Positions 7,765 to 40,273 of a stretch of DNA of 64,000 nucleotides are shown one piece after another (positions within the stretch are counted from its first letter, which is position 1; each line of letters starts with the position of its first letter). The stretch comes from Pseudomonadota bacterium. Lineage in GTDB: Bacteria > Pseudomonadota > Gammaproteobacteria > JBCCGL01. The notes below the pieces were generated by a model. That model did not search any database and was not told where the DNA came from. It saw nothing but the letters and a program-made list of their open reading frames with translations. Where the stretch lies: assembly GCA_039029275.1 (NCBI GenBank), contig JBCCGL010000011.1, forward strand, positions 44,676 to 108,675, given 5' to 3'. Made by a program: the position numbers and the translations under genes.

Positions 7765-7947
7765 ATGGATATTCTTTTCTTTCTTATCCCCATCGCCGTT
7801 TTACTTGCATGTGTGATCGTTGGGGTATTTTTTTGGGCGGTAAGGAGCGGACAGTTTGAGGATCTTGAGGGACCGGCGTATCGTATTTTGCGCGACGACG
7901 ATTCAAACTCGCTCAACCGGCGGATCGAGCAGGAAAGGCAGGATTAA
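7765..7947 (+). CDS. ccoS: cbb3 oxidase maturation protein CcoS
   Basis: MDILFFLIP...FWAVRSGQFEDLEGPAYRILRDDD. Confidence 0.93.
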   Translation: MDILFFLIPIAVLLACVIVGVFFWAVRSGQFEDLEGPAYRILRDDDSNSLNRRIEQERQD

Positions 7948-8906
7948 CTGCCCCGTTTGGCGCTACTTTCGTACAGGTCCATGCCATCGGGTATTTGATC
8001 GTATTGTTTAAACTTGTCCAGCACCCATTCGCGAAACAAATCGTGGTGACGGTGCATGGTGCGGTTTCGTGGGGAGATCAGGTACACATTCTGTGGTGTC
8101 TGAACCACCGTATTGGCCACGCGCACCAGACGACCTTCCTGCAGATAACCGCCAGCCAAATGCTGCCAACCCAGCGCCACGCCTTGCCCGACGAGGGCCG
8201 CGTGAATCGCCGAGTGGTGGTCCGAGAAAACCACGTCTGGACTGCTCGTAGCGTCTATCCCTGTGGCCTCGAACCATTCGGACCATCCCATGCGCGATCG
8301 CTTTGGCTCGGTGGCGTAAAGTAAATTTGCCTGCTGCAGGGTTTCCAGTTCCATACATTCAGGGTGTGCTTTGACATAATCGGGGGACGCCAGCGCGTAG
8401 ACGCGCTCACGCGCCAGCATCCAGCTCTCCACATCGCTCCATTCACCCATTCCGATCCAGGTGCTGAAATCGCACGTGGATAACTCAAACGAATTCAGAT
8501 CACCGTGGTTTTCGGTGATTTCAAACAACACGCTCAGGTTTGCATCCTTGAACTCGGCGATATTCGGCACCAGCCACATCGAGACAAAGCTGGACGAAAA
8601 ATTGACCCGGATTTTCTGGCTGTCGCTACTGGGAATAATCTGCCGCACTGCCTGATCGACGCTGGTCAATGCTGTGCGCACCTGTGCAGCCAGGGCTTCC
8701 CCTTCGCTGGTTAGCGATAACCCTCGGTGTTGTCTGAAAAACAGTTTTACCCCCAGATTTTGTTCAATCTGACGGATTGATTTGCTAACCGCTGGCTGGG
8801 AAATACACAGCTCATCAGCAGCATTGGTGAAATTCAGATGTCTGGCAACGGCCTCGACGACGTAGAGACTGTTAAGTGACGGGAGAATTCGGCGCAGGTT
8901 TCGCAT
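7944..8906 (-). CDS. LysR-family transcriptional regulator (GcvA-like)
   Basis: LPSLNSLYVVEAVARHLNFTNAADELCISQPAVSKSIRQIE HTH; divergent from the 9004 operon. Confidence 0.93.
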   Translation of the reverse strand: MRNLRRILPSLNSLYVVEAVARHLNFTNAADELCISQPAVSKSIRQIEQNLGVKLFFRQHRGLSLTSEGEALAAQVRTALTSVDQAVRQIIPSSDSQKIRVNFSSSFVSMWLVPNIAEFKDANLSVLFEITENHGDLNSFELSTCDFSTWIGMGEWSDVESWMLARERVYALASPDYVKAHPECMELETLQQANLLYATEPKRSRMGWSEWFEATGIDATSSPDVVFSDHHSAIHAALVGQGVALGWQHLAGGYLQEGRLVRVANTVVQTPQNVYLISPRNRTMHRHHDLFREWVLDKFKQYDQIPDGMDLYESSAKRGS

Positions 8907-8921
8907 AACTTTAAATTATGC
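8903..8921. promoter_or_regulatory. LysR-type recognition site GCATAA-N7-TTATGC
   Basis: Perfect 6 bp inverted repeat containing T-N11-A. It overlaps the LysR start codon and is centred ~65 bp upstream of the start site inferred from an extended -10 (TGgTAGAGT, 8963-8971). Confidence 0.7.
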
Positions 8922-9003
8922 CCGATGGAACTTTTTTTGGGGAGCAAAAACGCGCTCAGAGTTGGTAGAGTAAGGAGATAAAACTAATTCCCGGAGCAAA
9001 TAA

Positions 9004-11433
9004 ATGAAATCACACGCCAAAGTCGTTGTAGTGGGCGGTGGATGCGTGGGCGCATCGATCCTTTACGGTTTAACCAATCATGGCTGCAGTGATGTCGTGA
9101 TGTTGGAGCGCACACAATTGACGTCCGGGTCGACATGGCACGCGGCGGGCCTTTTGGTGACATTTGCCCGCTCGTTCAATCTCTCGAAAATGGCGATGGA
9201 AAGTATCAACATCTACAAGGAAGTTGAAGAAAAACTGGGGACCTCAGTGGGGCTGCGTCAGGTCGGTCAGTTGCGCGTCGCCAACACCGAAAAGCGTTGG
9301 GATGAATTTCAAAGCTACATCTCAATCGCCGAAGCGGCCGGAATACCGTGTCGTTTGTTGACACCGCAAGAAGTGGCTGAAGCGCACCCGCTGCTGGCGC
9401 AAAACGAAAACATTCGTGGCGGCATCCTGCATGACAAAGATGGCTATGTGAATCCATCAGACATCACCATGGGTCTGGCCAAACTCGCCCGCGAACAGGG
9501 CGCGGTTATTTACCAGGATACCGAGGCCACAGCATACGAACACCAGGCAGACGGCCTCTGGAAAGTCACCACTAACCAGGGTGATATCACCTGTGAGCAT
9601 CTGGTCTTTGCAACAGGTAACTACACCCGCGAAAACGCACGCCGAGTTGGCCTGGATTTGCCCTGCATTCCGATCGTGCACCAATACTGGACAACCGAGC
9701 CTGTCCCTGAGCTGCTGCGACGTCGCAAGGAAGGTCTGCCGGAATTTCCAATCCTGCGTGACGAGGACTACGGTGCCTACCTGCGCGAGGATGTTGGCGG
9801 GTTCCAGTTTGGCCCGTACGAATTCGAAAAAGACCTCAAGCTGTTCGCCGAAGACCGAGTACCCCCCGATTTTGGTGCGGACCTGCTGCCGGAAGATTTT
9901 GAGGCAGTATCCACCCAGTGGGAACGCGCAATCGAACGCGTACCTGCACTGGGCGAAGTGGGCATCAAGGCCAATACGCGCGGCCCCTTCCAGATGACGC
10001 CAGACGAACTGCCACTTTGTGGTCCTGCGCCAAAGCGTCAAAACCTGTGGCTGGCTGAAGGCGTGCCTGGCGGCATATTCTGGGGAGGCACTTTGGGTGA
10101 GCGCCTGGCCCGTTGGATCATTAATGGTGATCCAGGCATTGATATGTCTGAAATTGATCCTCGCCGCTTTGGCGACTTTGCCTCCAAACGCTGGACCATG
10201 GATGTCGTGCGCGAAACCTGGGGCAACCATATGCACGCGCATGTGCCCGGTGAGGATTTTCCCTCGGCTCGCCCAATGAAAACAGCGCCCTCTTACGATT
10301 TACTCACCGCGCACGGCGCCGTCTGGACCTCGCTCAATGGCTACGAATTCCCCCGCTGGTTTGCCCCGTCACCGGAACAGGCGATTCCAGAGCACAGTTT
10401 TCGCCGCACGGAGCATATGGAGTACGTTCAGCAGGAAGTGAAAACCACGCGTGAAGAAGCCGGTTTTATCGAAATGTCGCCGATGACCAAATTTACCGTG
10501 CGCGGTCCCGGGGCCGCCGCGTGGCTCGACGGCATTATGGCCAACAAGCTGCCCAAAGTGGGTCACATGACTCTAGCGCTGGCTCTCAACCCACGCGGGG
10601 GAATGGAAGGTGAGTACACCGTTGTGCGTTACGCAGAAAATGACTTTTATCTGGTCAGCACTCCGACCGGTCAGGTGCATAACTGGGATTATTTATCGCA
10701 TCGCTTACCCGCCGATGGCTCTGTAGAAATGCAGGATATCTCAGAACAATTCGGCGTGATTGCATTGGCCGGACCTAAGGCACGCGAGATACTCCAGCCA
10801 TTGACCGATAATGACCTTTCCAACGAGGCTTTCCCCTGGCTCTCGGCACAAATGGGTGAAGTGGGTTACGCCAAGGGTGTTCACCTGCTGCGTGTCAGCT
10901 ATACCGGTGAGCTCGGTTGGGAACTGCACCACCCGATTGGGTATAACCGCCATTTGGTCGATCAGCTTCTCAAGGCGGGCGTCAAGCCGTTTGGCCTTGA
11001 AGCGCTTGAGTCCATGCGACTGGAAAAATCCTACCGCGCGATCAACCGCGAAATCTGCAAGGATCTGACTCCATTCGAAGTGAGTCTGGATCGGTTCGTC
11101 GTGCTCGAAGGCCGCGAATTTATCGGACGTGATGCACTTGTCAAGCAAAAGGAAGAAGAGGATTACCGCGTACTGGTCACCCTGAAACTGCCCTCGTGTG
11201 ATACCTCAGTTATCGCCGATGAAAGCGTCTTTAAAGACGGCGAGTTAATCGGTCGCGTGACTTCAGGGGGGTTCTCGTACCACTGCGACCACGATATTGC
11301 CATGGCGCTGGTGCCACAGGAATTCGCAGCCGATGGCACCCGAATGCAGGTAAAAATCCATAACGAACTTCGCGACGCTGAGGTTGTGGATGTTTGCCTC
11401 TACGATCCAAGCAGTGCGCGTGCACGCGTCTGA
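9004..11433 (+). CDS. GcvT-family FAD/folate-dependent oxidoreductase (dimethylglycine/sarcosine dehydrogenase-like)
   Basis: GGGCVG Rossmann motif, LTSGSTWHAAG, C-terminal GcvT domain (RVSYTGELGWELH, ESMRLEKSY). Confidence 0.92.
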   Translation: MKSHAKVVVVGGGCVGASILYGLTNHGCSDVVMLERTQLTSGSTWHAAGLLVTFARSFNLSKMAMESINIYKEVEEKLGTSVGLRQVGQLRVANTEKRWDEFQSYISIAEAAGIPCRLLTPQEVAEAHPLLAQNENIRGGILHDKDGYVNPSDITMGLAKLAREQGAVIYQDTEATAYEHQADGLWKVTTNQGDITCEHLVFATGNYTRENARRVGLDLPCIPIVHQYWTTEPVPELLRRRKEGLPEFPILRDEDYGAYLREDVGGFQFGPYEFEKDLKLFAEDRVPPDFGADLLPEDFEAVSTQWERAIERVPALGEVGIKANTRGPFQMTPDELPLCGPAPKRQNLWLAEGVPGGIFWGGTLGERLARWIINGDPGIDMSEIDPRRFGDFASKRWTMDVVRETWGNHMHAHVPGEDFPSARPMKTAPSYDLLTAHGAVWTSLNGYEFPRWFAPSPEQAIPEHSFRRTEHMEYVQQEVKTTREEAGFIEMSPMTKFTVRGPGAAAWLDGIMANKLPKVGHMTLALALNPRGGMEGEYTVVRYAENDFYLVSTPTGQVHNWDYLSHRLPADGSVEMQDISEQFGVIALAGPKAREILQPLTDNDLSNEAFPWLSAQMGEVGYAKGVHLLRVSYTGELGWELHHPIGYNRHLVDQLLKAGVKPFGLEALESMRLEKSYRAINREICKDLTPFEVSLDRFVVLEGREFIGRDALVKQKEEEDYRVLVTLKLPSCDTSVIADESVFKDGELIGRVTSGGFSYHCDHDIAMALVPQEFAADGTRMQVKIHNELRDAEVVDVCLYDPSSARARV

Positions 11434-11450
11434 TCGGGAGAAAATAAAAA

Positions 11451-12965
11451 ATGACAGTAAAGGCACGCGGCGAACGCAGCGGCCGCTCGGCTCGGGTAAA
11501 GGCTCGCATCAACCCGCCTCCAGTCTATCTGCCGACGCTGAACCGCAAGATCGGGCCGATTGAGCTGCTTGATTCCGAGGGCGTCGAAAAAATCCATACC
11601 GCCGCGATGACCATCCTTGAAACAACGGGGATCGAGTTTCGTGACCCGGTCGCTCTGGCCGATTGGAAAAAAGCCGGTGCAGATGTACAGGATCAACGAG
11701 TGCGCATCGGGCGCGATATGTTGATGGAGCTGATTTCGAGCGTTCCGTCAACGTATCGCATGCATGCGCGCAACCCGGAGCACACAATTGATGTGGGCGG
11801 GCGCAACTCGATCTTCGCCAACGCCTATGGAACGCCTTTCGTTTACGGATTGGATGGGGTCCGACGACCTTCCATGCTCGATGATGCGCACAACTTTTTC
11901 AAGCTCGCGCAGACGAGTCAGGCTATGCACGTTCCGGGTATTCTGCCGGTTGAACCGCAGGATGTCCCGGTACCCCAACGCCACCTGGATCTGGTCTCCT
12001 CGGCACTGACATTGACCGATAAACCCATCATGGGGTCTGTGCTGTCTGAGACCGCGGCGCGCGACACCGTGGAAATGGTGCGCATTGTTTTCGGGGAGGA
12101 CTTCGTCGATCAAAACGTCGTGCTGACCTCTTTGCTCAACTGCAATACGCCGCTGGTGTGGGATGAAACAATGTTGGAAAGCCTGCGTGTCTACGCGGCC
12201 GCCAATCAGCCCTGTCTGCTTTCACCGTTTGTATTGGCAGGTGCCAGCACACCCGCCAGCCCGTTCGGCGGTGTGGCGCTGTTGATTGCTGAATCACTGG
12301 CGGGTATGGCGTACAGCCAGATTATTCGTCGCGGATGCCCGATGGTGATGGGTGTAGCGATTATGGGCGTATCGATGAAGACCGGCGCACCAATGATGGG
12401 GTCACCCGAGCCCGGTCTGATGAATCTGCTGGTTGGCCAGATGGCGCGATTTTACCAGGTGCCATGGCGTTCCTGTACCATGTGGAGTGGTTCCAAATCA
12501 CCCGACTTGCAGGCGGGATTTGATAGCGCAAATACGATGTGGCCGGTACTGCTGGGTGGGTGTAACTTTCTGGTTCACACCGCCGGCTTTCTTGAAGGTG
12601 CGCTGGGAATCAGCTACTCGAAATGGGTCCATGATGCTTACCAGTTGGAGGCTTACCATCGTTTTTTCTCCGGGCTAAAAGAAGAAAATATAAGTGACCT
12701 GCTGAGTGACATCGCCGAGATTGGGCCCGGCGGGCACTTCCTCGGCACCGATCACACCCGCGAGAATCCGCTGCAGGTTAATCCCCTGCAAAATAACGAC
12801 AGCTTTGAGCAGTGGTATGACGAGGGCGCCAGGAACGCGGACGAGGTTGGACGCGAAGAGGCTAAGCGTATGCTGAGCGCGTATGTTAAGCCGCCAATGC
12901 CCGACGGTCAGGCCGGCGCACTGGCAGAATTCGTCGCCAAGAAACGCGTCGAATACATCAACTAG
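11451..12965 (+). CDS. MttB-superfamily (trimethylamine/quaternary amine) methyltransferase, non-pyrrolysine
   Basis: NCNTPLVWD, PFVLAGASTP, GSKSPDLQAGFDSA, HTAGFLEG, IGPGGHFLG; no in-frame amber codon. Confidence 0.9.
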   Translation: MTVKARGERSGRSARVKARINPPPVYLPTLNRKIGPIELLDSEGVEKIHTAAMTILETTGIEFRDPVALADWKKAGADVQDQRVRIGRDMLMELISSVPSTYRMHARNPEHTIDVGGRNSIFANAYGTPFVYGLDGVRRPSMLDDAHNFFKLAQTSQAMHVPGILPVEPQDVPVPQRHLDLVSSALTLTDKPIMGSVLSETAARDTVEMVRIVFGEDFVDQNVVLTSLLNCNTPLVWDETMLESLRVYAAANQPCLLSPFVLAGASTPASPFGGVALLIAESLAGMAYSQIIRRGCPMVMGVAIMGVSMKTGAPMMGSPEPGLMNLLVGQMARFYQVPWRSCTMWSGSKSPDLQAGFDSANTMWPVLLGGCNFLVHTAGFLEGALGISYSKWVHDAYQLEAYHRFFSGLKEENISDLLSDIAEIGPGGHFLGTDHTRENPLQVNPLQNNDSFEQWYDEGARNADEVGREEAKRMLSAYVKPPMPDGQAGALAEFVAKKRVEYIN

Positions 12966-12999
12966 GCAACAATTTGGCGCATGTAACCGGAGGGGGCCG

Positions 13000-14010
13000 A
13001 TGACTAACGTGACGACAAAAACAATCTCGCTCGCAGACGTACGGGCATTGGCCAAGCGCGTGCTTGTATCAGGCGGAATGGACGAACGCGGTAGCGATGT
13101 TATCGCTGACCTCGTGACAATGTGCGAGCGCGACGGGCCGCGCAGTCATGGATTGGCGATGCTGCCGCGCTATGTGCAGAGCTTTGAGTCGGGCTACGCC
13201 AATGGTGCTGCTCGCCCGAGTGTCGAAAAGATCGCCCCGGGCGTGCTGCGCGGCGATGGCGACAACGGGTATTTCCAGATTGCCTCTGACGTAGCTCGTC
13301 CAAAATTAATCGAACTGGCGCGCGAAAATGGCATTGCCGGCTTTACCTGTGCCAACACACATCATTTGTCAGGCCTGCGTTTCGAAACTGAAGCGCTGGC
13401 CAATGAAGGATTGGTCGCCATGTGCGTTGTCAACTCACTCGCACTGATTGTGCCTCACGGCGGCAACCGACCCGTTTTCGGCACCAACCCGATGTCGTTT
13501 GCCTGCCCGCGCGAAGGCGATGAACCGATCGTTTGGGACCAATCGTCATCAGTCGTGGCATTGATGGATATAAAACTGGCCGCCGCTGAAGGCCATGATC
13601 TTGATGTGCCGGGAGGGCTGGATCGCGCGGGCAATATCACCACCGATGCTGCCGAGATCAGCCAAACCCTGAGCCTGCTGCCTTTTGCGGAGCACAAAGG
13701 AACCTGTATTGCCATGATGGTTGAAATCATGGGGGCCGCGTTGGCGGGCGGCACACCCTCGATTAAAACCGAGGAAAAAGAGTCCTTTGGCTCACTTAAT
13801 GTTAAGCCCGGTGTGACCACCATCGCGATTGATCCGCACAAGTGGGGCAACCCCGGATTTCTCAAGCAGATCGGGCAAATGGTCGAGGATATGTGTGCTG
13901 CACCCGGCGTGCGCGTACCGGGAGACGGTCGCTTGCAACGTCGCGCCACAGCAAAGACGGACGGCATTGTGGCAAGCGCAGAACTCCTGGCGCAACTGGG
14001 CTACGAATAA
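13000..14010 (+). CDS. Ldh_2-family reductase, DpkA-like (Pyr2C/Pip2C reductase clade)
   Basis: ERDGPRSHG, THHL, VVNSLALIVPHGGNRPVFGTNP and LLPFAEHKG closely parallel Pseudomonas DpkA as recalled; ATG 13000 follows a GGAGG RBS. Confidence 0.82.
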   Translation: MTNVTTKTISLADVRALAKRVLVSGGMDERGSDVIADLVTMCERDGPRSHGLAMLPRYVQSFESGYANGAARPSVEKIAPGVLRGDGDNGYFQIASDVARPKLIELARENGIAGFTCANTHHLSGLRFETEALANEGLVAMCVVNSLALIVPHGGNRPVFGTNPMSFACPREGDEPIVWDQSSSVVALMDIKLAAAEGHDLDVPGGLDRAGNITTDAAEISQTLSLLPFAEHKGTCIAMMVEIMGAALAGGTPSIKTEEKESFGSLNVKPGVTTIAIDPHKWGNPGFLKQIGQMVEDMCAAPGVRVPGDGRLQRRATAKTDGIVASAELLAQLGYE

Positions 14011-14022
14011 GGTCAACTACCT

Positions 14023-15264
14023 GTGAAGCGAGTCGTTGTCGTTGGCGGTGGCGTCGTCGGTATATCCTGCGCGTTGTCCTTACAGGCCGATGGCCACCAC
14101 GTCACTGTGTTGGAACCAGGACCAATTGGTGAGGGTGCCAGCTGGGCTTCCTGCGGCTGCATCGCCGTGGGTGAAATCGTGCCCTTGTCGCAGCCCGGCA
14201 TGTTGGCGAAAGTCCCGGGCTGGTTAATCGATCCCGACGCGCCCTTGTCTCTGCGCCCGGCCACTGCACTGTCGCTGCTGCCATGGTTTGCACGCTTCAC
14301 TGCCAATGCGCGTCCGTCGCGTATGCGCGCGATTGCGAAAGACTTGTCTGCGCTCACGTTCTGTGCAACTGCAGATTTCAAGACACAGATTGCCGACGTT
14401 GGATGCTCCGAGTTGTTGGTTGAACGTCCCGTGCTCAAGTTATTTGACGACGAATCCGACCGCGACACCATGGGAGCTGCGTTTGGACTGGCGCGTGAAA
14501 TGGGTTGTACGATTGATGAAGTTTCGGGTCAGGAGGCGCATGAAATAGATCCCGCGATTGCAGCTGATTTTAAATACGCAGCGGTGCTACGCGACTGGAG
14601 CTACGTGACCGATCCAAAGTATCTGGTTGAAGCGCTGGTTGATGCGTTTGCCCGACGGGGAGGCACGGTGCAGCCATCGGCTGCAACCGGTTTTGATCGT
14701 GAGGGCAACAAAATAGTCGGCGTGCGTCTTGAACAGGGCAGCGTGGTAGAAGCAGACGAAGTCGTTCTTGCGGCAGGCACTCATTCCAAGGCACTGGCCA
14801 GGAGTTTGGGTTTGACATTGCATTTGGAAGGCTTAATCGGTTACTCCACAGCTTTACGCAACGCGGGTGTTGATTTGCAGCACACTGTTTTCTATCCAAA
14901 AGGCGGCTTTGGGATTACGCCTTACGATGGTGCGCTTGCTGTCGCAGGTACAATTGAATTTGCCGGCGCCAATGCTGCACCCAGATGGCGGCGGGCCGAG
15001 GTACTGGTAAAACAGGCGCACCGTGTATTGCCGGGTCTGCGAGATGATCAGGCTGAGCGTCGCATGGGAAGGCGGCCCTTCACGCCTGATACGCGGCCGA
15101 TCATAGGGCGCACTAAAAAGCTGGCAAACCTCACGCTGGCTACCGGTCATGGCCAGCTTGGATTAACGTTGGGTGCCACAACGGGCGGTCTTGTCGCAGA
15201 CGTCGTTACAGGTCGCAAACCCCGTCTGGATATTGCGGCCTACAGCCCTGACCGGTTTTCCTGA
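14023..15264 (+). CDS. FAD-dependent D-amino acid dehydrogenase/oxidase (DadA/HypO-like)
   Basis: GGGVVG, GASWASCG, MGRRPFTPDTRPIIG, TGHGQLGLTLG. Confidence 0.88.
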   Translation: MKRVVVVGGGVVGISCALSLQADGHHVTVLEPGPIGEGASWASCGCIAVGEIVPLSQPGMLAKVPGWLIDPDAPLSLRPATALSLLPWFARFTANARPSRMRAIAKDLSALTFCATADFKTQIADVGCSELLVERPVLKLFDDESDRDTMGAAFGLAREMGCTIDEVSGQEAHEIDPAIAADFKYAAVLRDWSYVTDPKYLVEALVDAFARRGGTVQPSAATGFDREGNKIVGVRLEQGSVVEADEVVLAAGTHSKALARSLGLTLHLEGLIGYSTALRNAGVDLQHTVFYPKGGFGITPYDGALAVAGTIEFAGANAAPRWRRAEVLVKQAHRVLPGLRDDQAERRMGRRPFTPDTRPIIGRTKKLANLTLATGHGQLGLTLGATTGGLVADVVTGRKPRLDIAAYSPDRFS

Positions 15265-15351
15265 ATATCGCCGCAGTGCGATAAAGTGAGCGGTTGATTT
15301 GTATTGCCGTCTCTGATGTTTTTGACCTGACTACGTTTAGAAAAGTAAAAG

Positions 15352-16455
15352 ATGAAAATAAAAGAAATCCATATCTACCAGCACGATCTGCCGGTGAAAA
15401 ATGGCCCCTATACGATGGCCAGTTGCACGGTGCACGCGCTTGACAGCACGCTGATCAAGCTTGTCGCTGAGGATGGCACCGAGGGCTGGGGGGAAACCTG
15501 TCCGGTCGGCCCAACCTACGCTGAATCTCACGCGCAGGGCGCGCGCGCCGCGCTTCATCTGCTGGCCGAGGGTCTGATCGGTGCCGATATTTGGCCACTG
15601 AGCCTGCAACGCAAAGCGAACAGTCTGCTTAATGGGCATAACTATGCAAAAGCGGCCGTGGATATCGCCGCACACGATCTCATGGGAAAACACTTTGGGA
15701 TGAATGTCGCTGATCTGCTAGGTGGAGCAGTCACGAATCGAGTTCCGTCGTACTACGCAACGGGTGTTGGTGCACCCGACGATATCGCGCGTCTGGCCGG
15801 CGAAAAGCGCGACGAAGGTTATCCGCGCTTACAGGTTAAAGTTGGCGGGCGACCGGTTGAAATTGATATCGAAACCATTCGAAAAGTGTGGGAAGTGATC
15901 GGGGGCTGGGGAATGCGCATGGCCGTCGATGGCAATCGAGGCTGGACCACGCGCGATGCGCTGCGAGTGAGTCGCGAATGCCCGGATATACCCTTTATCA
16001 TGGAACAGCCGTGCAACACCTACCAGGATCTTGAGAAGATACGACCGCAAGTCGGTCACGGTATATACATGGATGAGAACAGCGTCGATTTAAATACGGT
16101 GATATCAGCCGCGGGCACAGGGCTGGTGGATGGTTTTGGCATGAAAGTGACGCGTATTGGCGGCTTACAGAATATGCGCGCGTTTCGCGATATTTGCGAG
16201 GCGCGTAACTTGCCTCATACCTGCGACGATAGTTGGGGCGGCGACGTAATTGCTGCGGCGTGCACTCAGATCGGATCTACCATGCGTCCTGATCTCTGCG
16301 AAGGCGTATGGCTGGCTGCGCCGTATATCGAAGGACACTACGACTCTCAAAACGGTATCAGTATCAACGGCGGTCATATCCAACGACCGACCGGTCCTGG
16401 TCTGGGCGTAACGCCTGATGAAGCTATGTTCGGCGAACCTATTGCCAGCTTCTGA
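15352..16455 (+). CDS. hpbD: 4-hydroxyproline betaine 2-epimerase / proline betaine racemase (enolase superfamily)
   Basis: [59 protein letters not shown] and [10 protein letters not shown] match Pelagibaca HpbD (as recalled) along nearly the full length. Confidence 0.88.
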
Positions 16456-16612
16456 TCATAAACACTACTCGCCAATTAGGTCGCGAGTATTCAGCGTTTA
16501 ACAACCCAATGCAGCGAATCCTGTGAGAACAAACAACGGCGGACTATTTTCAGGAACACAAGAATTAAAATTGGCAGAGAAAATTTCGCGATAGCGAGGC
16601 TGCTGCGAGAAT

Positions 16613-16634
16613 CACCCCGACAGACGCCGGGGTG
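16613..16634. terminator. possible terminator hairpin between convergent hpbD and BCCT
   Basis: CACCCCG/CGGGGTG 7 bp stem, 8 nt loop; weak U tract. Confidence 0.3.
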
Positions 16635-16657
16635 TTGTGAGATTTCGTTACGTGTTT

Positions 16658-18223
<1,566 letters not shown>

Positions 18224-18443: not shown

Positions 18444-20753
18444 ATGAATGTCAAAACAAAGCTACTTATCACACTGAGCCTGTTGGCGATTGTGCCGATG
18501 CTCGTAACGGTTAGCGTGAGCGCCTGGGTTTCCGGGGATTCTGCAACCCGATTATTGGTTCGACAGACAGAGCAACAGCTTGCGCAGATACGCGACACAC
18601 AAAGACAAAACGTCAACAACTATCTAAATCAGATAGAACTTCTGCTCAAAAGTTATTCCCAAAGCAAAATGGCAATCGAGCTGTTAGATGAATTGGGTTA
18701 CAACGCGGAGGAATACGTTGATGAAAATCAGGATGTACCAATTGAAGAAACGCGGCAGACGCTGATTACCTATTACGAAGCAAATCCTTTGCTTGGCGAA
18801 TTTTCAGCCAGCGAACACGTGGCATCCCTCGAAGATTTTTCTGCTGTCATGCAGTACCGTTACATTGCGTTGAACGAAAACCCGGCACAAGAGCGGGAGA
18901 AGCTCATCAATCCCGGTGATTACTCATCGTATTCTGAGACCCATCGACGCTTTCAACAGGAAAATATCGATTACATGGCGTCGAATGGAATTGAGGATAT
19001 TTATATCATCGATTTTGAAGGAACGATTGTTTACTCAGTGCGCAAGAAAGCTGACTTTGGCACGTCGCTTTTGGACGGACCCTTCGCCAATAGCCGACTC
19101 GGTGAGCTATTCACGCAACTCGAATCGAAGGAATACAAGGGTGAGTTTCCGCTAAATTCAGACTTTTTTAGTTACCAGCCCTCGGGCGACACACAAACAC
19201 TGTTTATCGGCGCCCTGATAACCGACAGAACCGTGCCCTTAGGGATAGTTATCTTCCAACTGACGTCCCATGCCATCGACAACATCCTGACCAATCACGG
19301 TGATTGGCATTCAGCAGGTTTGGGCGAGACCGGACAAACCTATCTGGTGGGGCGAGACAAGACAGTTCGCAGCATCGATCGCAGATTCGTAGAAGCGCCC
19401 GAAGATTACCTTGAAAACCTGCAGCAAACGGGCGTAAGCGAGCAGTCGATCGAGGCGATTCGCAAACATCGCCATCCCATCAATATACAGGTGGTCGATA
19501 CGAAATCAGTTGATCTGGCACTGCAGGGAGAGTCCGGGTTTGCGCAGTTGCAGTCCAATTCCAGCGGCACAACTCTGTCCGCCTACGCACCTCTGGGGCA
19601 CGCGCGATTCGACTGGGCGATATTAGCTGAAATGGCGCAGACCGAAGCAAACGCACCCGCTGTCGAGTTAACCCAGCGAATACTGACCATAACTGCCGCC
19701 GCAGCAACTGCAGTCACTTTGATCGCCGTTCTGGCGGGAGGCCTATTTTCATCGCGATTGGTTCGCCCGATTGATCAGCTAACACGTGAGATTGACTACA
19801 TCGAATCGAACTCAGATCTCACAGTTAACCTGAGCGGTCATCCGTCTGACGTCACCATCGATATCGTGACATCGATGAATAAGATGCTGCGAAAACTTCA
19901 CGATATTATCAGTACGGTAGCGAAGGGAAGCGCGGAACTGTCTGGCGCGGCTGAGAATATTAATCGCATAAGCGAACAAACCTGCAAGGACATTCAAAAG
20001 CAAACCATCGAAACCAACAATATTACAGAGTCGATTGGCAAAATGATCGAGTCGATCCAGCAAAGCGATCAGGACGCTGGCGAAGCGAAAGTCGCAGCGA
20101 CTACTGCCGCAAGTCGAGCACACAGTGGTCGAGGAACAGTTGAGGCGACCACAAGCTCAGTTGGAAAATTCAACGACGAGATCACCAGCGCGTCTGAAGT
20201 GATCGGTCAGTTGGCTAAAAGTAGCACCGAGGTCAGCTCGGTTCTCGGTGTCATCAACACCATTGCAGAACAAACCAACCTTTTGGCTCTGAATGCGGCA
20301 ATCGAGGCGGCGCGAGCCGGCGACAAAGGGCGCGGATTCTCTGTCGTGGCTGACGAGGTGCGAGTACTGGCAAGCCGCACGCAAGAGTCGACCGAAGAAG
20401 TCCGAAAAATTGTCGACACCTTGCAGAAACACGCACAGGACGCGGTGGACACAATGGAAAATGGTCTTTCGCAAGGTCGCAATTGCGTCGATCGCGCTCA
20501 AGAAACCTCAAATGCGTTAACTGAAATCGCTGCATCGATTGAAAAACTTGCAGCATCAAATGACCGCGTTGCCAAAATCGCAAATGATCAGTTGCATAGT
20601 TCCAACCAGATTACCGAGCGACTCTCAGTTATCGGGCATATTTCAACGACGACCAACCGAAGTGCTCAAGACGTGCGACAAGCGAGCGAGGACATTAACC
20701 GTTTATCAACAGATCTGGATAAAGCGATTTCGGTATTCACATTATCCGCCTAG
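18444..20753 (+). CDS. methyl-accepting chemotaxis protein with large periplasmic Cache-like domain
   Basis: Two TM helices, HAMP region, signalling domain [34 protein letters not shown]. Confidence 0.93.
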
Positions 20754-20832
20754 CGCATTTTTATTAATCGTTGCTCACGCAGTCAGCAAAATCGTATCAA
20801 CACCTCGCATGGATGAACACGACGCATAGCGC

Positions 20833-20888
20833 AAGACACAAAGTGCAGCCCGCGCTATAGTGAAATCGTTTTCTAATTGACGATTTCA
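20833..20888 (+). promoter_or_regulatory. putative sigma70 promoter plus 9 bp palindromic operator upstream of amine oxidase
   Basis: AAGACA-17-TATAGT (20833-20861), then TGAAATCGT-N10-ACGATTTCA (20861-20888). Confidence 0.5.
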
Positions 20889-20896
20889 TCATCCAT

Positions 20897-22795
20897 ATGA
20901 ATTTCGATACTGGTACGCACGATCACCCTCTCGATCCGCTTACGCCTGGCGAACTGAAAAAAGTTGTCGATTTGATTCGACAATCCGATATTGGTCGTGA
21001 CTCTATCCTTTTCGAACAGATCCGATTAATCGAACCCGATAAGCATAACGTCCGCACTTTTAACCCAGGCGATCCGATTTCACGCTCGGCGCTCGCTGTG
21101 TTTCAGAACCGTGACAACGGCAATGTGTTCGAGGCACGAGTGTGTCTCGAGAATCAGACAATTAAAGCGAGCAGCATACCGGACGTACAAATTCCGATAA
21201 CACTTGAAGAGTGCGACGAGCTATCTTCCTTGGTCAAAGCAGATGACGCCTTCCTGCAGGCCCTGGCAGCAAGAGGTATCGATGATACAAACAAGGTTGT
21301 GGTGGAGGCGCTGAGCATGGCCAACTTCGCCGATCCTGAGGAAGAACAATTTCGCCTGGCGCGCGCGCATTGTTTCTACATCGAAGCACCCGATGACAAT
21401 CCACACGCGCGGCCGATTGAGGGTTTGGTGCCAGTTGTCGATCTCGGCGCAATGCGCGTATTACGGATCGAGGATTACGGGTCGAAACCGATTCCTTCTG
21501 ATCGCGGCGAATATCGCGCGAGCAAATTGGGGCACGTAGATCCGCCCACGGCGCGACTGGACATTACCCAAGCTGACGGTCCCGGATTCACAGTCAACGG
21601 CCATCATGTCAATTGGCAAAACTGGGATTTTCGGGTCGGATTTACCCCGCGCGAAGGTCTTGTCCTGCACACCTTGTCGATCAGTGATGATGGCGATTTG
21701 CGGCCGGTTGTGCATCGCGCGTCCTTAAGCGAGTTGGTTGTGCCTTACGCCGAAACGCACGGCGACCACTACCTCAATCATTCCTTTGACCTTGGCGAAG
21801 GCGTGTTTGGCAACGCGGTGAATTCACTCACGCTTGGCTGCGATTGCGTCGGCGAAATTTACTATTTTGATGTAAACCTTACCGATGCATTCGGTAACAT
21901 AAAGCATCTGCCCAACGCTATCTGCATGCACGAAGAAGACTACGGTGTATTGTGGAAGCATACAGATACACAAAACAACACGACCGAAGTGCGCCGGTCG
22001 CGTCGACTGGTTGTATCGTCGTTTTTTACAATTGGGAACTACGACTACGGCATCTTCTGGTATTTGTACCTGGACGGCACAATTGAGTTTGAGGCCAAGC
22101 TTACGGGCATGCTCTACACCCGCGCGTTGGAAAACGGCGAGAGCGCGAAATACGGCGTACAGGTCGCGCCAAACCTGTGCGGCATGATTCACGAGCACTA
22201 CTTCAATATTCGACTCGATATGTGTGTCGACGGCGATAACAACAGCGTGGTTGAAGTTGAGGCCAAGCGGGTTCCCACAGGCCCAGACAACCCACACGGC
22301 AATGCCCACGGGATACGCGAAACGATTCTTGACAGCGAACTAAACTCCGGCCGAGACACAAACGCCGCGGACGCGCGCTACTGGAAAGTGATTAATCGCG
22401 CTAAGGTCAATTCACTTGGATGGCCGTCCGGTTACAAGCTGATGCCCGGTAATAACGTCAAGCCCATGCACCAACCCGGCTCACCTTTTATGCGCCGCGC
22501 AGGGTTTGTTGCGCACGACGTATGGGTCACCGCCTTTGATGAAAAAGAACTGCATGCACCGGGCGACTACCTCAATCAGAACGAAGGTGGCGGGCTTTCT
22601 GAGTGGGTAAAGGCGGATCGCCCGATTGTTGATACCGACATCGTCCTTTGGCACACGGTTGGCGTTATGCACGTTCCGCGTCCAGAGGATTTTCCAGTTA
22701 TGCCTGTTGAATACACTGGATTCATGTTAAAGCCGGTTGGCTTCTTCGAGCGCAACCCTGCCTTGAATCTTGCGCCGCCGGGATGTGATAAATAA
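20897..22795 (+). CDS. copper-containing primary amine oxidase (TPQ)
   Basis: TIGNYDYG (TPQ consensus NYD), copper ligands HEH and WHTVG...HVPRPEDFPVMP; no signal peptide. Confidence 0.94.
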   Translation: MNFDTGTHDHPLDPLTPGELKKVVDLIRQSDIGRDSILFEQIRLIEPDKHNVRTFNPGDPISRSALAVFQNRDNGNVFEARVCLENQTIKASSIPDVQIPITLEECDELSSLVKADDAFLQALAARGIDDTNKVVVEALSMANFADPEEEQFRLARAHCFYIEAPDDNPHARPIEGLVPVVDLGAMRVLRIEDYGSKPIPSDRGEYRASKLGHVDPPTARLDITQADGPGFTVNGHHVNWQNWDFRVGFTPREGLVLHTLSISDDGDLRPVVHRASLSELVVPYAETHGDHYLNHSFDLGEGVFGNAVNSLTLGCDCVGEIYYFDVNLTDAFGNIKHLPNAICMHEEDYGVLWKHTDTQNNTTEVRRSRRLVVSSFFTIGNYDYGIFWYLYLDGTIEFEAKLTGMLYTRALENGESAKYGVQVAPNLCGMIHEHYFNIRLDMCVDGDNNSVVEVEAKRVPTGPDNPHGNAHGIRETILDSELNSGRDTNAADARYWKVINRAKVNSLGWPSGYKLMPGNNVKPMHQPGSPFMRRAGFVAHDVWVTAFDEKELHAPGDYLNQNEGGGLSEWVKADRPIVDTDIVLWHTVGVMHVPRPEDFPVMPVEYTGFMLKPVGFFERNPALNLAPPGCDK

Positions 22796-22805
22796 ATCCG
22801 ACTTG

Positions 22806-23387
22806 TCACGGCGAGATTCCGCCAAATAAACTCTGCACGGCGTGATCGCCCGCCTGTTTGGGATTCATTTGACCGGAGTGAATAGACCACCAGCCCACGT
22901 ACGTCACGCTATCGATCAACATGACGATCCAGTCTGTCGATAAACTTTCGTTGATTGATTTTTCAATTTTCGCGCGTTCCACGATTTGGGCGAGTTCGTC
23001 AAGTTGCCGATAGTAAATTTTGATCGCTTCATCGTTTTCTGAGGCAATTACCCACAGCAACATCAGAAAGTGAAATCGATCTGCCACTGGCATAATCGCG
23101 CGGATACCTTCGGTGATTACTTCAACCGCCGGCCTTTCAGGAACGTTCAACGATTTAAGAACAGCCTCTGATGCCTTCATAGACTCCGCAGCAAGCTCAA
23201 GCACCAGTTCATCGCGTGACTCGAAATGACGATACAGTGTCGCCCGCCCCACACCGGCGTGCGCCGCAATGTCACTCATTGACGCACGAGGATTTTCCAA
23301 CAGCAACTCGATTGCCGCGTTCAGCAATGCATCTCGAGAACGGTGAGCACGCGGATCACTGACATTGATACTTTTTTTACGAGACAT
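22806..23387 (-). CDS. TetR/AcrR-family regulator
   Basis: ASMSDIAAHAGVGRATLYRHFESRDEL; probable ATG at 23387. Confidence 0.92.
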   Translation of the reverse strand: MSRKKSINVSDPRAHRSRDALLNAAIELLLENPRASMSDIAAHAGVGRATLYRHFESRDELVLELAAESMKASEAVLKSLNVPERPAVEVITEGIRAIMPVADRFHFLMLLWVIASENDEAIKIYYRQLDELAQIVERAKIEKSINESLSTDWIVMLIDSVTYVGWWSIHSGQMNPKQAGDHAVQSLFGGISP

Positions 23388-23414
23388 AGTTGACCCACAG
23401 TTGTTTTGCATCTA

Positions 23415-23432
23415 TGATACACGTATGTCTTA
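23415..23432. promoter_or_regulatory. imperfect palindrome, candidate TetR operator
   Basis: TGATACA-N4-TGTCTTA in the 66 bp divergent intergenic region. Confidence 0.3.
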
Positions 23433-23453
23433 TATAGATCATTAATAATTCCA

Positions 23454-23747
23454 ATGCACAAAGCACAATTTTTAGCTAATCAGTGCTTTCAGTGGCTGAT
23501 CAAGAATAAAGGCAGAGCAATAGGTTCTTTGATCGTTATTGCTATTTCCACCGCCATGAACTGGTACTGGCTATGGGGCCTGCTACTCCTTTTGTGGGCG
23601 GTGAATGATTTTATTACATCGCAAACGTGGCTCTCTGAAACTATCTCCAAACGATCTAATCCCATTTTGTTTCACATCATCGTACTGATGTGGGCTGCCT
23701 TTGGCGTTTACTTCATCTTTTTCATCGATACGTATGAATACTACTAG
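23454..23747 (+). CDS. small Trp-rich membrane protein
   Basis: 97 aa, NWYWLWGLLLLLWA...NPILFHIIVLMW; 9 bp upstream of the Rieske gene. Confidence 0.7.
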   Translation: MHKAQFLANQCFQWLIKNKGRAIGSLIVIAISTAMNWYWLWGLLLLLWAVNDFITSQTWLSETISKRSNPILFHIIVLMWAAFGVYFIFFIDTYEYY

Positions 23748-23756
23748 GAGAAACTA

Positions 23757-30146: not shown

Positions 30147-30441
30147 TGAACCGCGATGCTACCGAGATGTATATCGATCAGGTAGGATTTCGTCTTAATA
30201 ACGTTTGTTCAAGGTGACTGGTAAGAACCTGTTTCTCCAGCTGATCTAACCACCGTAGACCCTCTAATTCTATCTGCAAACGCGCGCGGTACGCCCACAA
30301 ACCTAAACAAACATGAAAACTATGGGATTGTTTAACGAAGTCCTCATTTGTCCAGTTTTGTTATTTTTCACCATGTTTCTGCACAGGCGCTCTGGTATAA
30401 CGGGCTAAGCCACATAGATCGTGGCGTATCAGAGCTGTACG

Positions 30442-37145: not shown

Positions 37146-38096
<951 letters not shown>

Positions 38097-40195: not shown

Positions 40196-40273
40196 AGTGT
40201 TTACCCGCAATAGTGGTTTACCAAGTGCACCTTGTTCCAATTCCGCAGTTGCGAAAATGAAGAAAATTCGTTT

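What the first reader, a model, noticed from the sequence alone, without database searches (positions are those of the whole stretch)
11451..12965. Non-pyrrolysine MttB with no cognate corrinoid protein, activator or methyl-THF transferase in the window
Seen: an intact 504 aa ORF with no amber codon, and no B12-binding (DxHxxG) protein, RamA-like activator or MtqA-like gene in these 64 kb. Established: characterised MttB enzymes work in three-component systems with a corrinoid protein. Inference: the partner is encoded elsewhere (for example a split MetH B12 domain), or the enzyme uses a different methyl acceptor or couples directly to the adjacent GcvT folate-binding domain.
Basis: partly seen in the sequence, partly recalled or inferred. 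Interest (0 to 1): 0.55.

Follow-up and report, generated by a model that had tools for sequence, protein, structure and literature searches.

The report
MttB module using shared corrinoid core
This pyrrolysine-free MttB methyltransferase is not an orphan: its vitamin-B12 carrier protein, methyl-folate transferase and reactivating enzyme lie on another contig, where they also appear to be the cell's split methionine synthase, an arrangement published for marine bacteria in 2025.

Summary
The ORF at 11451-12965 is an intact 504-aa full-length MttB-family protein. The pyrrolysine position is a TGG Trp codon. No B12-binding, RamA/RACo or methyl-THF transferase gene lies in the window or on its 187-kb contig.

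The "orphan" reading does not hold. Contig C5 carries the genome's only methyltransferase-type corrinoid protein (cap + B12 domain, GDIHDIG). Next to it are DUF1638, a pterin-binding methyltransferase and a RACo/RamA-like activator, with formate-THF ligase upstream and CobN about 6 kb downstream.

The genome has no MetH reactivation domain and no second cap or pterin domain, but it has four stand-alone homocysteine methyltransferases and 16 MttB paralogs. This matches the MtgBCD(E)/split-MetH system shown genetically in Ruegeria pomeroyi and Phaeobacter inhibens.

In a 201-genome class sample, all 12 genomes with MttB also had an MtgC-like protein. Only 1 of 189 genomes without MttB had one.

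The MttB lies in an operon-like cluster: LysR, DMGDH-like demethylase, MttB, DpkA-like reductase, D-amino-acid dehydrogenase, HpbD, BCCT transporter. This points to proline-betaine-type catabolism. The adjacent GcvT domain most likely removes the second methyl group and is not the MttB acceptor.

Verdict: a new member (distinct orthogroup, invariant Trp345, probably horizontally acquired) of a known kind.

The parts
7944..8906 (-). Divergently transcribed LysR-family (GcvA-like) regulator, candidate operon regulator
   Evidence: HTH_1 + LysR_substrate. Best NCBIfam hit is GcvA, 229.6 bits, below the cut-off of 288. A LysR-type gene, mostly only 26-30% identical, sits divergently upstream in most ortholog loci.
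9004..11433 (+). DMGDH-like flavoprotein (DAO-FAO_M-GCV_T-GCV_T_C, 809 aa); inferred second, oxidative, THF-dependent N-demethylase
   Evidence: Pfam architecture. 522 bits to rat dimethylglycine dehydrogenase 4PAB/4P9S. Lies directly upstream of MttB at 76-85% identity in every ortholog locus with DNA there. The gap to MttB is 17 nt.
11451..12965 (+). Non-pyrrolysine MttB-superfamily methyltransferase (504 aa); inferred substrate:corrinoid methyltransferase (MT1) for a carboxylated quaternary amine
   Evidence: PF06253 full length, 556.8 bits. 426 bits to 4YYC and 307 bits to D. hafniense MtgB 2QNE/9YCE. MtgB residues Y97/R312/H348 are conserved as Y126/R340/H376, and F356 is replaced by A384.
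12483..12485 (+). TGG codon (Trp345) at the position of the pyrrolysine UAG codon of true MttB
   Evidence: Alignment to 7XCL, where X334 aligns to W345. Codon read. Trp is invariant in 95 of 95 orthogroup members, variable in 25 more distant homologs, and absent from the other 15 paralogs of this genome.
13001..14010 (+). Ldh_2-family DpkA-like reductase (inferred delta1-pyrroline-2-carboxylate / delta1-piperideine-2-carboxylate reductase)
   Evidence: PF02615, 267 bits. Best solved relative is DpkA, 1WTJ/2CWF, 218.8 bits. The likely start is the ATG at 13001, preceded by GGAGGGGG; the longer ORF from 12883 overlaps MttB. Conserved downstream of MttB in most ortholog loci.
14023..15264 (+). 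FAD-dependent D-amino-acid-dehydrogenase-like oxidoreductase (inferred D-proline/D-pipecolate dehydrogenase)
   Evidence: PF01266, 174 bits. NF001933 D-amino acid dehydrogenase subfamily, 202.9 bits, below cut-off. Conserved in most ortholog loci.
15352..16455 (+). HpbD ortholog (enolase superfamily; 4-hydroxyproline betaine 2-epimerase / proline betaine racemase)
   Evidence: 594.9 bits to P. denitrificans 4E8G/4IZG/4J1O and 560.6 bits to P. bermudensis 2PMQ/4H2H. The function of those proteins is given in PMC3950512. Found within 8 kb of MttB at 71-86% identity in 11 of the 57 ortholog loci.
16658..18223 (-). BCCT-family betaine/choline/carnitine transporter, convergent with the operon
   Evidence: PF02028, 546 bits. 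TIGR00842, 438 bits, above cut-off.

Best explanation
The MttB gene encodes the substrate-specific first methyltransferase (MT1) of a modular cobalamin-dependent demethylase whose other parts lie on another contig. It removes one N-methyl group from a carboxylated quaternary amine and transfers it to Co(I) of the genome's only methyltransferase-type corrinoid protein (MtgC-like, G000:C5:78162-78866). The substrate is most likely proline betaine or a close cyclic analogue such as pipecolate betaine, possibly as the D-form made by the co-encoded HpbD. The neighbouring pterin-binding protein (MtgD-like) then passes the methyl group to tetrahydrofolate, or a stand-alone homocysteine methyltransferase (MtgE-like) passes it to homocysteine. 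A RACo/RamA-like ATP-dependent reductase, together with DUF1638, restores Co(I) after oxidation. The same MtgC/MtgD/RACo core appears to be the cell's split methionine synthase, and it would have to serve all 16 MttB paralogs. The adjacent DMGDH-like flavoprotein then removes the second methyl group oxidatively as 5,10-methylene-THF. The D-amino-acid dehydrogenase and the DpkA-like reductase convert the resulting D-imino acid to the L-form through the cyclic imine. Shown here: gene content, domain architectures, conserved residues, synteny and co-occurrence. Inferred: the MttB-MtgC interaction, the substrate and the stereochemical route.
For: Partner set: one 234-aa cap+B12 protein with a GDIHDIG motif, then DUF1638, Pterin_bind, GFA and a 675-aa RACo protein, with FTHFS upstream and CobN about 6 kb downstream. 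The corrinoid protein's best solved relatives are methyltransferase corrinoid proteins, including MttC in 7XCN, and MetH B12 domains. It is unique: there is only one PF02607 hit, one RACo and one non-FolP pterin domain. The other small B12 protein is an acyl-CoA mutase subunit. No PF02965 MetH reactivation domain was found, only a 359-aa core-MetE-like frame, and there are four stand-alone PF02574 proteins. The genome has 16 PF06253 paralogs. Published precedent: mtgC and mtgD knockouts of R. pomeroyi are methionine auxotrophs and cannot grow on glycine betaine even with methionine, and multiple pfam06253 ORFs per genome are noted (PMC12478193). The split MetH with RamA-like and DUF1638 proteins in P. 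inhibens is described in PMC5764234, and shared MtgC and MtgD in bioRxiv 10.64898/2025.12.19.695462. Co-occurrence: in 201 genomes from about 200 families of the class, the 12 with PF06253 are the same 12 that have a stand-alone MtgC-like protein of at least 43% identity; only 1 of 189 without MttB has one. Synteny: none of the 57 ortholog loci has MtgC, MtgD or RACo within 8 kb, so the dispersed arrangement is the rule for this orthogroup. Substrate clues: the HpbD ortholog, the DpkA-like reductase, the BCCT transporter, and conservation of the MtgB carboxylate-binding R and H and of the Tyr with loss of the glycine-betaine-specific Phe.
Against: No experiment or expression data links this MttB to MtgC, and no RNA run holds this DNA. 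The published genetics concern glycine betaine and a different MttB paralog, and paralogs here are only 20-45% identical to this one. HpbD is adjacent in only 11 of 57 ortholog loci, so the proline-betaine assignment rests on a minority of contexts plus the DpkA/DAO pair. The genome is a 94% complete MAG in 20 contigs, so a second corrinoid protein in unassembled DNA cannot be ruled out. Genomes sampled for co-occurrence are related, so the association is not a formal statistical test.
Confidence: 0.8

Rival explanations
1. Corrinoid-independent coupling: MttB hands the methyl group directly to tetrahydrofolate bound on the GCV_T domain of the adjacent flavoprotein, perhaps in a complex. No B12 carrier would then be needed.
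For: The DMGDH-like gene lies immediately upstream of MttB (17-nt gap) in every ortholog locus with DNA there. In this genome 9-10 of 16 MttB paralogs adjoin a DMGDH-like paralog. One database protein (P0123, 1322 aa) is a DAO-FAO_M-GCV_T-MTTB fusion.
Against: All characterised MttB-superfamily enzymes methylate Co(I) corrinoids (PMC13080624, PMC8604678). The neighbour has the full DAO+FAO_M+GCV_T architecture of oxidative demethylases that trap formaldehyde as methylene-THF, which explains the linkage as consecutive steps. The fusion is a single-member cluster whose domain order mirrors the adjacent genes, so read-through or a miscalled gene is likely. MttB presence tracks MtgC presence 12 of 12 in the class sample.
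Confidence: 0.03
2. MttB uses another carrier: free cobalamin, or a corrinoid protein missing from the assembly, rather than the C5 MtgC-like protein.
For: MttB-family enzymes methylate free cob(I)alamin in vitro (PMC13080624). The MAG is 94% complete.
Against: Only one cap-bearing corrinoid protein was found. In R. pomeroyi the single MtgC is required for betaine demethylation. Several sampled genomes place an MttB gene within about 0.05-10 kb of MtgC (coordinates).
Confidence: 0.07
3. The partner model is right but the substrate is not a proline-type betaine. The enzyme acts on another carboxylated quaternary amine, and the HpbD neighbour in this genome is incidental.
For: HpbD is within 8 kb in only 11 of 57 ortholog loci. 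No solved or characterised ortholog exists: the best is 4YYC, an unpublished structure labelled only as a putative trimethylamine methyltransferase. No comparison with E. limosum MtpB could be made.
Against: The conserved core DMGDH-like-MttB-DpkA-like-DAO fits a cyclic imino-acid betaine, because D-to-L inversion through a cyclic imine is what DpkA-type reductases do. The glycine-betaine-specific Phe356 is replaced by Ala. The orthogroup has its own invariant Trp at the Pyl site.
Confidence: 0.3

Closest known systems
MtgBCD(E) modular cobalamin-dependent glycine betaine demethylase / split methionine synthase of Ruegeria pomeroyi DSS-3 and Phaeobacter inhibens (PMC12478193; PMC5764234; bioRxiv 10.64898/2025.12.19.695462)
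   Same: A stand-alone cap+B12 corrinoid protein, a pterin-binding methyltransferase, a RamA-like activator and DUF1638 are all present. No MetH reactivation domain was found. There are stand-alone homocysteine methyltransferases and several dispersed pfam06253 genes that are not next to the corrinoid gene.
   Different: This MttB is a different paralog, only 42% identical to the genome's best-scoring MtgB-like copy. It sits in a proline-betaine-type operon rather than a glycine betaine context. The host appears to be a gammaproteobacterial MAG with 16 paralogs, against 'up to seven' in the paper. Here MtgC, DUF1638, MtgD and the activator are clustered, whereas they are scattered in R. pomeroyi. 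No genetics exist for this organism.
D. hafniense MtgB (2QNE/9YCE) and E. limosum MtpB, MtcB, MtyB, MthB: non-Pyl MttB-superfamily quaternary amine:corrinoid methyltransferases of anaerobes (PMC13080624, PMC8604678)
   Same: Same fold family (307 bits to MtgB). The carboxylate-binding Arg and His and one cation-pi Tyr are conserved. No pyrrolysine.
   Different: The anaerobe enzymes are usually encoded beside their corrinoid protein and MT2. This one is not. F356 of MtgB is Ala here, and the Pyl-equivalent residue is an orthogroup-invariant Trp rather than Leu.
Hpb pathway for (hydroxy)proline betaine in Paracoccus denitrificans, Rhodobacter sphaeroides and Pelagibaca bermudensis (PMC3950512)
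   Same: An HpbD ortholog at about 595 bits, a LysR regulator, a betaine transporter, two successive N-demethylations and a D-amino-acid dehydrogenase step.
   Different: In the published pathway the first demethylation is by the Rieske oxygenase HpbB/C and the second by HpbA. Here these positions are held by MttB and a DMGDH-like flavoprotein. The only Rieske oxygenase in the window matches the Rieske-type ring-hydroxylating dioxygenase chain 3VCA (taken from memory to be stachydrine demethylase Stc2) at just 80 bits. A DpkA-like reductase replaces the Pyr4H2C deaminase and KGSA dehydrogenase branch.
Pyrrolysine-containing MttB / MttC / RamA of Methanosarcina (7XCL/7XCN)
   Same: Same Pfam family and the same logic: MT1, corrinoid protein and an ATP-dependent reductive activator.
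   Different: Only 82 bits of similarity. Pyl334 is replaced by Trp. The score is below the TIGR02369 cut-off. The downstream acceptor is predicted to be THF or homocysteine rather than coenzyme M.

Membership tests
MttB superfamily (PF06253) | Full-length match to the MTTB profile above the gathering score | tested here: met
   556.8 bits against a cut-off of 25; residues 9-501 on profile positions 2-498 of 500.
Pyrrolysine-type trimethylamine methyltransferase MttB (TIGR02369) | In-frame UAG (pyrrolysine) at the active-site position, and a score above the equivalog cut-off | tested here: not met
   Pyl334 of 7XCL aligns to Trp345, codon TGG. 218.5 bits against a cut-off of 525.
Glycine betaine-specific MtgB (D. 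hafniense type) | Binding motif Y97, R312, H348, F356 (PMC13080624) | tested here: not met
   Y126, R340 and H376 are conserved, but the F356 equivalent is Ala384. The carboxylate-binding half is kept and the glycine-betaine-specific aromatic pair is not.
MtgBCD(E) / split-MetH modular system | Stand-alone corrinoid protein with B12 cap, B12-binding domain and the DxHxxG His-on motif | tested here: met
   L007:10163-10867 (G000:C5:78162-78866), 234 aa, PF02607 + PF02310, GDIHDIG. It is the only PF02607 hit in the genome.
MtgBCD(E) / split-MetH modular system | Separate pterin-binding methyl-THF:corrinoid methyltransferase (MtgD) | tested here: met
   A 319-aa PF00809 protein about 1 kb downstream of the corrinoid gene. 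It is the only pterin-binding hit besides a FolP-strength one.
MtgBCD(E) / split-MetH modular system | RamA-like (RACo/DUF4445) activator and DUF1638 protein | tested here: met
   A 675-aa protein with RACo linker, middle and C-terminal domains, and a DUF1638 protein, in the same cluster. The RACo gene is single-copy.
MtgBCD(E) / split-MetH modular system | No canonical MetH; stand-alone homocysteine-binding module (MtgE) | tested here: met
   No PF02965 hit. Four stand-alone PF02574 frames of 310-415 aa. Only a core-MetE-like 359-aa frame. Caveat: the genome is 94% complete.
MtgBCD(E) / split-MetH modular system | Demonstrated dependence of the MttB reaction on MtgC and MtgD (genetics or biochemistry) | not testable with these tools
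   Only co-occurrence (12 of 12 against 1 of 189) and published precedent for another paralog.
Hpb (hydroxy)proline betaine pathway | HpbD betaine epimerase/racemase ortholog | tested here: met
   594.9 bits to 4E8G and 560.6 bits to 4H2H over the full length.
Hpb (hydroxy)proline betaine pathway | Rieske-type HpbB/C first demethylase and HpbA second demethylase | tested here: not met
   Neither lies in the cluster. The window's only Rieske oxygenase (23757-24914) scores 105 bits to CntA and 80 bits to the Rieske-type ring-hydroxylating dioxygenase chain 3VCA. The whole genome was not searched for HpbA or HpbBC.

The most novel reading that the evidence does not exclude
The Trp345 MttB orthogroup, with its fixed DMGDH-like, DpkA-like and D-amino-acid-dehydrogenase partners, is an undescribed B12-dependent route for proline-betaine (or pipecolate-betaine) catabolism in aerobic marine Proteobacteria, in which the first demethylation needs no oxygenase. 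It replaces Rieske HpbBC and HpbA and runs through the D-enantiomer. It moves horizontally as an operon without its own corrinoid protein and can work only in hosts that already have the highly conserved MtgC/MtgD/RamA core, which is also their methionine synthase.
Probability: 0.45. Interest if true: 0.5.

Novelty: new member of a known kind. Interest (0 to 1): 0.33.

Why it matters
If this MttB uses the shared MtgC core, one small corrinoid protein links methionine synthesis to 16 different methyl-donor modules in a single marine bacterium. That widens the known B12 dependence of osmolyte turnover beyond glycine betaine. The orthogroup gives a concrete candidate for cobalamin-dependent proline-betaine-type demethylation in aerobes, with a diagnostic Trp at the pyrrolysine site. 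It also shows why MttB genes that appear to lack a partner should not be read as corrinoid-independent. The apparent transfer of the operon between proteobacterial classes suggests that substrate modules can be exchanged because the corrinoid core is so conserved.

Tried and rejected
- No RNA holder was listed for this DNA. The only holder is the marine metagenome the MAG probably came from. Expression and co-regulation were therefore not tested, and read laying was not used.
- Rfam found no cobalamin riboswitch or other RNA family in the window or in the MtgC locus.
- Promoter and terminator consensus scans were at chance level.
- Family- and order-level genome searches returned only 2 genomes, so the class level was used instead.
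- The search for fused forms found two singleton proteins. One is a RACo-fragment+MTTB-fragment chimera, and the other a DMGDH-like+MTTB read-through. Neither was treated as real evidence.
- The in-frame TAG reported in paralog C14:86504 lies about 29 residues into the extended frame, upstream of the conserved domain, so it is not a pyrrolysine site.
- The small B12 protein at C5:233753 was rejected as a methyl carrier. It has no cap domain and adjoins a methylmalonyl-CoA-mutase-family gene.
- The window's Rieske oxygenase was rejected as an HpbB/Stc2 ortholog.
- No literature was found for PDB 4YYC.
- No structure prediction was run, because close solved homologs exist and model coordinates cannot be measured with these tools.
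- Comparison with E. limosum MtpB was not possible because no sequence was available.
Full report
**1. The observation**

The ORF at 11451-12965 (+) is intact at 504 aa and is a full-length member of the MttB family (PF06253, 556.8 bits, profile positions 2-498 of 500). It falls well below the cut-off of the pyrrolysine-type equivalog TIGR02369 (218.5 against 525 bits). In the alignment to the solved trimethylamine methyltransferase 7XCL, pyrrolysine 334 (printed as X) aligns to residue 345. That codon is TGG (Trp), and the only TAG is the natural stop codon.

Whole-genome profile searches place no hit on the window's contig (C11, 187 kb) for any of these:
- a B12-binding domain;
- a B12 cap;
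- a RACo/RamA-like activator;
- a pterin-binding domain.

The only URO-D family hit in the genome is a HemE-strength match on C1. Pfam scans of 40 window ORFs agree.

**2. The partners lie elsewhere in the genome**

Contig C5 (G000:C5:78162-83351, read as L007) carries a compact cluster:
- a 234-aa protein with a B12 cap and a B12-binding domain, carrying the His-on motif GDIHDIG;
- a DUF1638 protein;
- a 319-aa pterin-binding methyltransferase;
- a GFA-family protein;
- a 675-aa RACo-type reductive activator.

Formate-THF ligase lies just upstream, and CobN lies about 6 kb downstream. The corrinoid protein's best solved relatives are methyltransferase corrinoid proteins (1Y80; MttC in 7XCN; 4JGI) and MetH B12 domains.

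This protein is the only cap-bearing corrinoid protein in the genome. The activator is single-copy. The pterin-binding protein is the only one apart from a FolP-strength hit. A second small B12 protein on C5 has no cap and adjoins a methylmalonyl-CoA-mutase-family gene, so it is a mutase subunit.

For methionine synthesis, no MetH reactivation domain was found, and there is only a short core-MetE-like frame. Four stand-alone homocysteine S-methyltransferase frames are present. The assembly is a 94% complete MAG, so absences carry that caveat.

**3. This is a published architecture**

Three papers describe the same arrangement.
- Price et al. 2018 (PMC5764234) showed by fitness genetics that Phaeobacter inhibens makes methionine with a MetH split into three proteins: homocysteine-binding, pterin-binding and cap+B12. 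A RamA-like protein and a DUF1638 protein are also needed.
- Mausz et al. 2025 (PMC12478193) showed in Ruegeria pomeroyi that the corrinoid protein (MtgC) and the pterin-binding protein (MtgD) are required for two things: methionine synthesis, and growth on glycine betaine through pfam06253 MtgB proteins encoded elsewhere. They also noted up to seven pfam06253 ORFs per genome and suggested that other methylated compounds use the same core.
- A 2025 preprint (10.64898/2025.12.19.695462) states the same sharing for P. inhibens.

The genome studied here fits this pattern feature by feature and has 16 pfam06253 paralogs.

**4. Independent support gathered here**

*Co-occurrence.* I sampled 201 genomes, about one per family of the class. 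PF06253 occurs in 12 of them. Those same 12 have a stand-alone MtgC-like protein (43-100% identity, frames of 237-290 aa). Only one of the 189 genomes without MttB has such a protein. Four further weak hits fall inside frames of about 860 aa and look like fused MetH-type proteins. In several sampled genomes an MttB gene lies about 0.05-10 kb from MtgC, for example G101, G024, G152, G079 and G191. Related genomes are not independent, so this is an association and not a formal test.

*Synteny.* For this particular orthogroup, 57 loci from other genomes at 77-85% identity show no MtgC, MtgD or RACo within 8 kb. Separation from the corrinoid core is therefore the normal state.

**5. What this MttB probably does**

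The gene sits in a same-strand, short-gap cluster (gaps of 17, 35, 12 and 87 nt):
- a divergent LysR regulator;
- a DMGDH-like flavoprotein (DAO-FAO_M-GCV_T; 522 bits to rat dimethylglycine dehydrogenase);
- MttB;
- an Ldh_2-family protein whose best solved relative is the Pyr2C/Pip2C reductase DpkA, with a likely true start at 13001;
- a D-amino-acid-dehydrogenase-like flavoprotein;
- a clear ortholog of HpbD, the (hydroxy)proline betaine epimerase/racemase (595 and 561 bits to 4E8G and 4H2H; function in PMC3950512);
- a convergent BCCT betaine transporter.

Across the 57 ortholog loci, the DMGDH-like gene is directly upstream in every locus with DNA there. The DpkA-like and DAO genes follow in most loci. 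HpbD is nearby in 11.

Mapping the experimentally defined glycine-betaine site of D. hafniense MtgB (PMC13080624) onto this protein gives:
- Y97 = Y126, conserved;
- R312 = R340, conserved;
- H348 = H376, conserved;
- F356 = A384, not conserved.

The carboxylate-binding half is therefore kept and the glycine-betaine-specific aromatic is not.

The residue at the pyrrolysine position, Trp345, is invariant in 95 of 95 orthogroup members. It is variable in 25 more distant homologs and absent from the other 15 paralogs of this genome.

My reading, which is an inference, is this pathway:
1. The betaine is taken up.
2. HpbD racemises it.
3. MttB removes the first methyl group onto MtgC.
4. The DMGDH-like enzyme removes the second as methylene-THF.
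5. The D-imino acid is oxidised to the cyclic imine.
6. The DpkA-like enzyme reduces the imine to the L-form.

A proline or pipecolate betaine fits better than hydroxyproline betaine, because no Pyr4H2C deaminase or KGSA dehydrogenase is in the cluster. The scan's earlier first-reader notes e1-5222908 and e1-5222910 propose the same operon reading. I checked the gene identities and synteny myself.

**6. The adjacent GcvT domain**

The linkage between MttB and the DMGDH-like gene is real and recurrent. In this genome 9-10 of the 16 paralogs adjoin a DMGDH-like paralog. The simplest explanation is two consecutive demethylations: quaternary to tertiary amine by MttB, then tertiary to secondary amine by the flavoprotein. 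This matches glycine betaine to dimethylglycine to sarcosine.

A search for longer homologs found only two singleton fused gene calls. One joins a RACo fragment to an MTTB fragment. The other is a read-through of a DMGDH-like gene into MttB. Neither is good evidence for a physical complex. I put corrinoid-independent coupling at about 3%.

**7. The host and the origin of the operon**

The same-genus relative G001 matches, in length and coordinates, record OZ255836.1, titled as a Gammaproteobacteria MAG.
- SecA from the window is 76% identical to G001's, so the contig belongs to this lineage.
- G001 has no ortholog of this MttB; its best hit is 45% identical.
- Synteny with G001 ends just after ccoI, upstream of the operon.
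- By contrast, the operon proteins are 72-86% identical to those of Rhodobacteraceae and Hyphomicrobiales genomes.
- The next gammaproteobacterial MttB hits are 44-50% identical.

This suggests that the operon was acquired horizontally from marine Alphaproteobacteria. MtgC itself is 83-87% identical to database proteins whose few source names include both gammaproteobacterial and alphaproteobacterial MAGs. That conservation would allow an imported MT1 module to use the resident core. Both points are inferences.

**8. Verdict**

The more exotic arms are not.
- The arrangement is already known for glycine betaine in roseobacters.
- What may be new is the orthogroup itself (Trp at the Pyl site and a conserved DMGDH-like/DpkA-like/DAO context), its likely proline-betaine-type substrate, and its presence as an apparently imported module in a gammaproteobacterial MAG with 16 paralogs.
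- Interest is modest. The decisive tests are mtgC and MttB knockouts in a cultured carrier, and in-vitro methylation of cob(I)alamin or MtgC with candidate betaines.

Noticed in passing
G000:C1:271378-277640 (L089:5355-11647): A second cluster of LysR, MttB, a DMGDH-like gene and an HpbD-like enolase-superfamily gene (45% identical to the window's HpbD; 378 bits to 4E8G). It has no DpkA-like or DAO genes, and may handle a different cyclic betaine.
   Followed up: partly
whole genome G000: There are 16 PF06253 paralogs, only 20-45% identical to the window's copy, and 9-10 adjoin a DMGDH-like paralog. Six of them (C4:183132, C4:300251, C14:86504, C17:45819, C9:207223, C17:40624) lack the carboxylate-binding Arg and His and form a low-scoring subgroup of about 313-397 bits. 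They may act on non-carboxylated methyl donors.
   Followed up: partly
window 7944-18223 compared with G001: The operon was not found in the same-genus genome G001, whose best MttB hit is 45% identical, and synteny ends after ccoI. Yet the operon proteins are 72-86% identical to Rhodobacteraceae and Hyphomicrobiales proteins, while SecA is only 76% identical to the congener's. Horizontal acquisition from Alphaproteobacteria is likely.
   Followed up: partly
window 40274-42670 (-) and 38870-40240 (-): A second DMGDH-like flavoprotein (DAO-FAO_M-GCV_T, 798 aa) lies next to a class-III aminotransferase, with no MttB beside it.
   Followed up: no
window 18444-24914: Just beyond the BCCT transporter lie a methyl-accepting chemotaxis protein, a copper amine oxidase, a TetR regulator and a Rieske/Ring_hydroxyl_A oxygenase. 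The oxygenase is weakly similar to carnitine monooxygenase CntA (105 bits) and to the Rieske-type dioxygenase chain 3VCA (80 bits). This may be another amine-catabolic island.
   Followed up: partly
P0122 and P0123 (database proteins): Two singleton fused gene calls: a RACo C-terminal fragment joined to an MTTB fragment (895 aa), and DAO-FAO_M-GCV_T joined to a full MTTB (1322 aa). They are probably merged adjacent genes, but they show these genes as neighbours in other genomes.
   Followed up: partly
G000:C5:68000-93030 (L007): MtgC, DUF1638, MtgD, a GFA-family protein and the RACo activator are clustered, with formate-THF ligase upstream and CobN about 6 kb downstream. This is more compact than the scattered layout described for R. 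pomeroyi, and resembles the S. meliloti co-localisation mentioned in PMC12478193.
   Followed up: partly
window 30421-33987 (+) and 37146-38048 (-): A 1188-aa RCC1-repeat/PKD-domain protein and a 300-aa collagen-triple-helix-repeat protein. Both are unusual surface or secreted repeat proteins unrelated to the finding.
   Followed up: no
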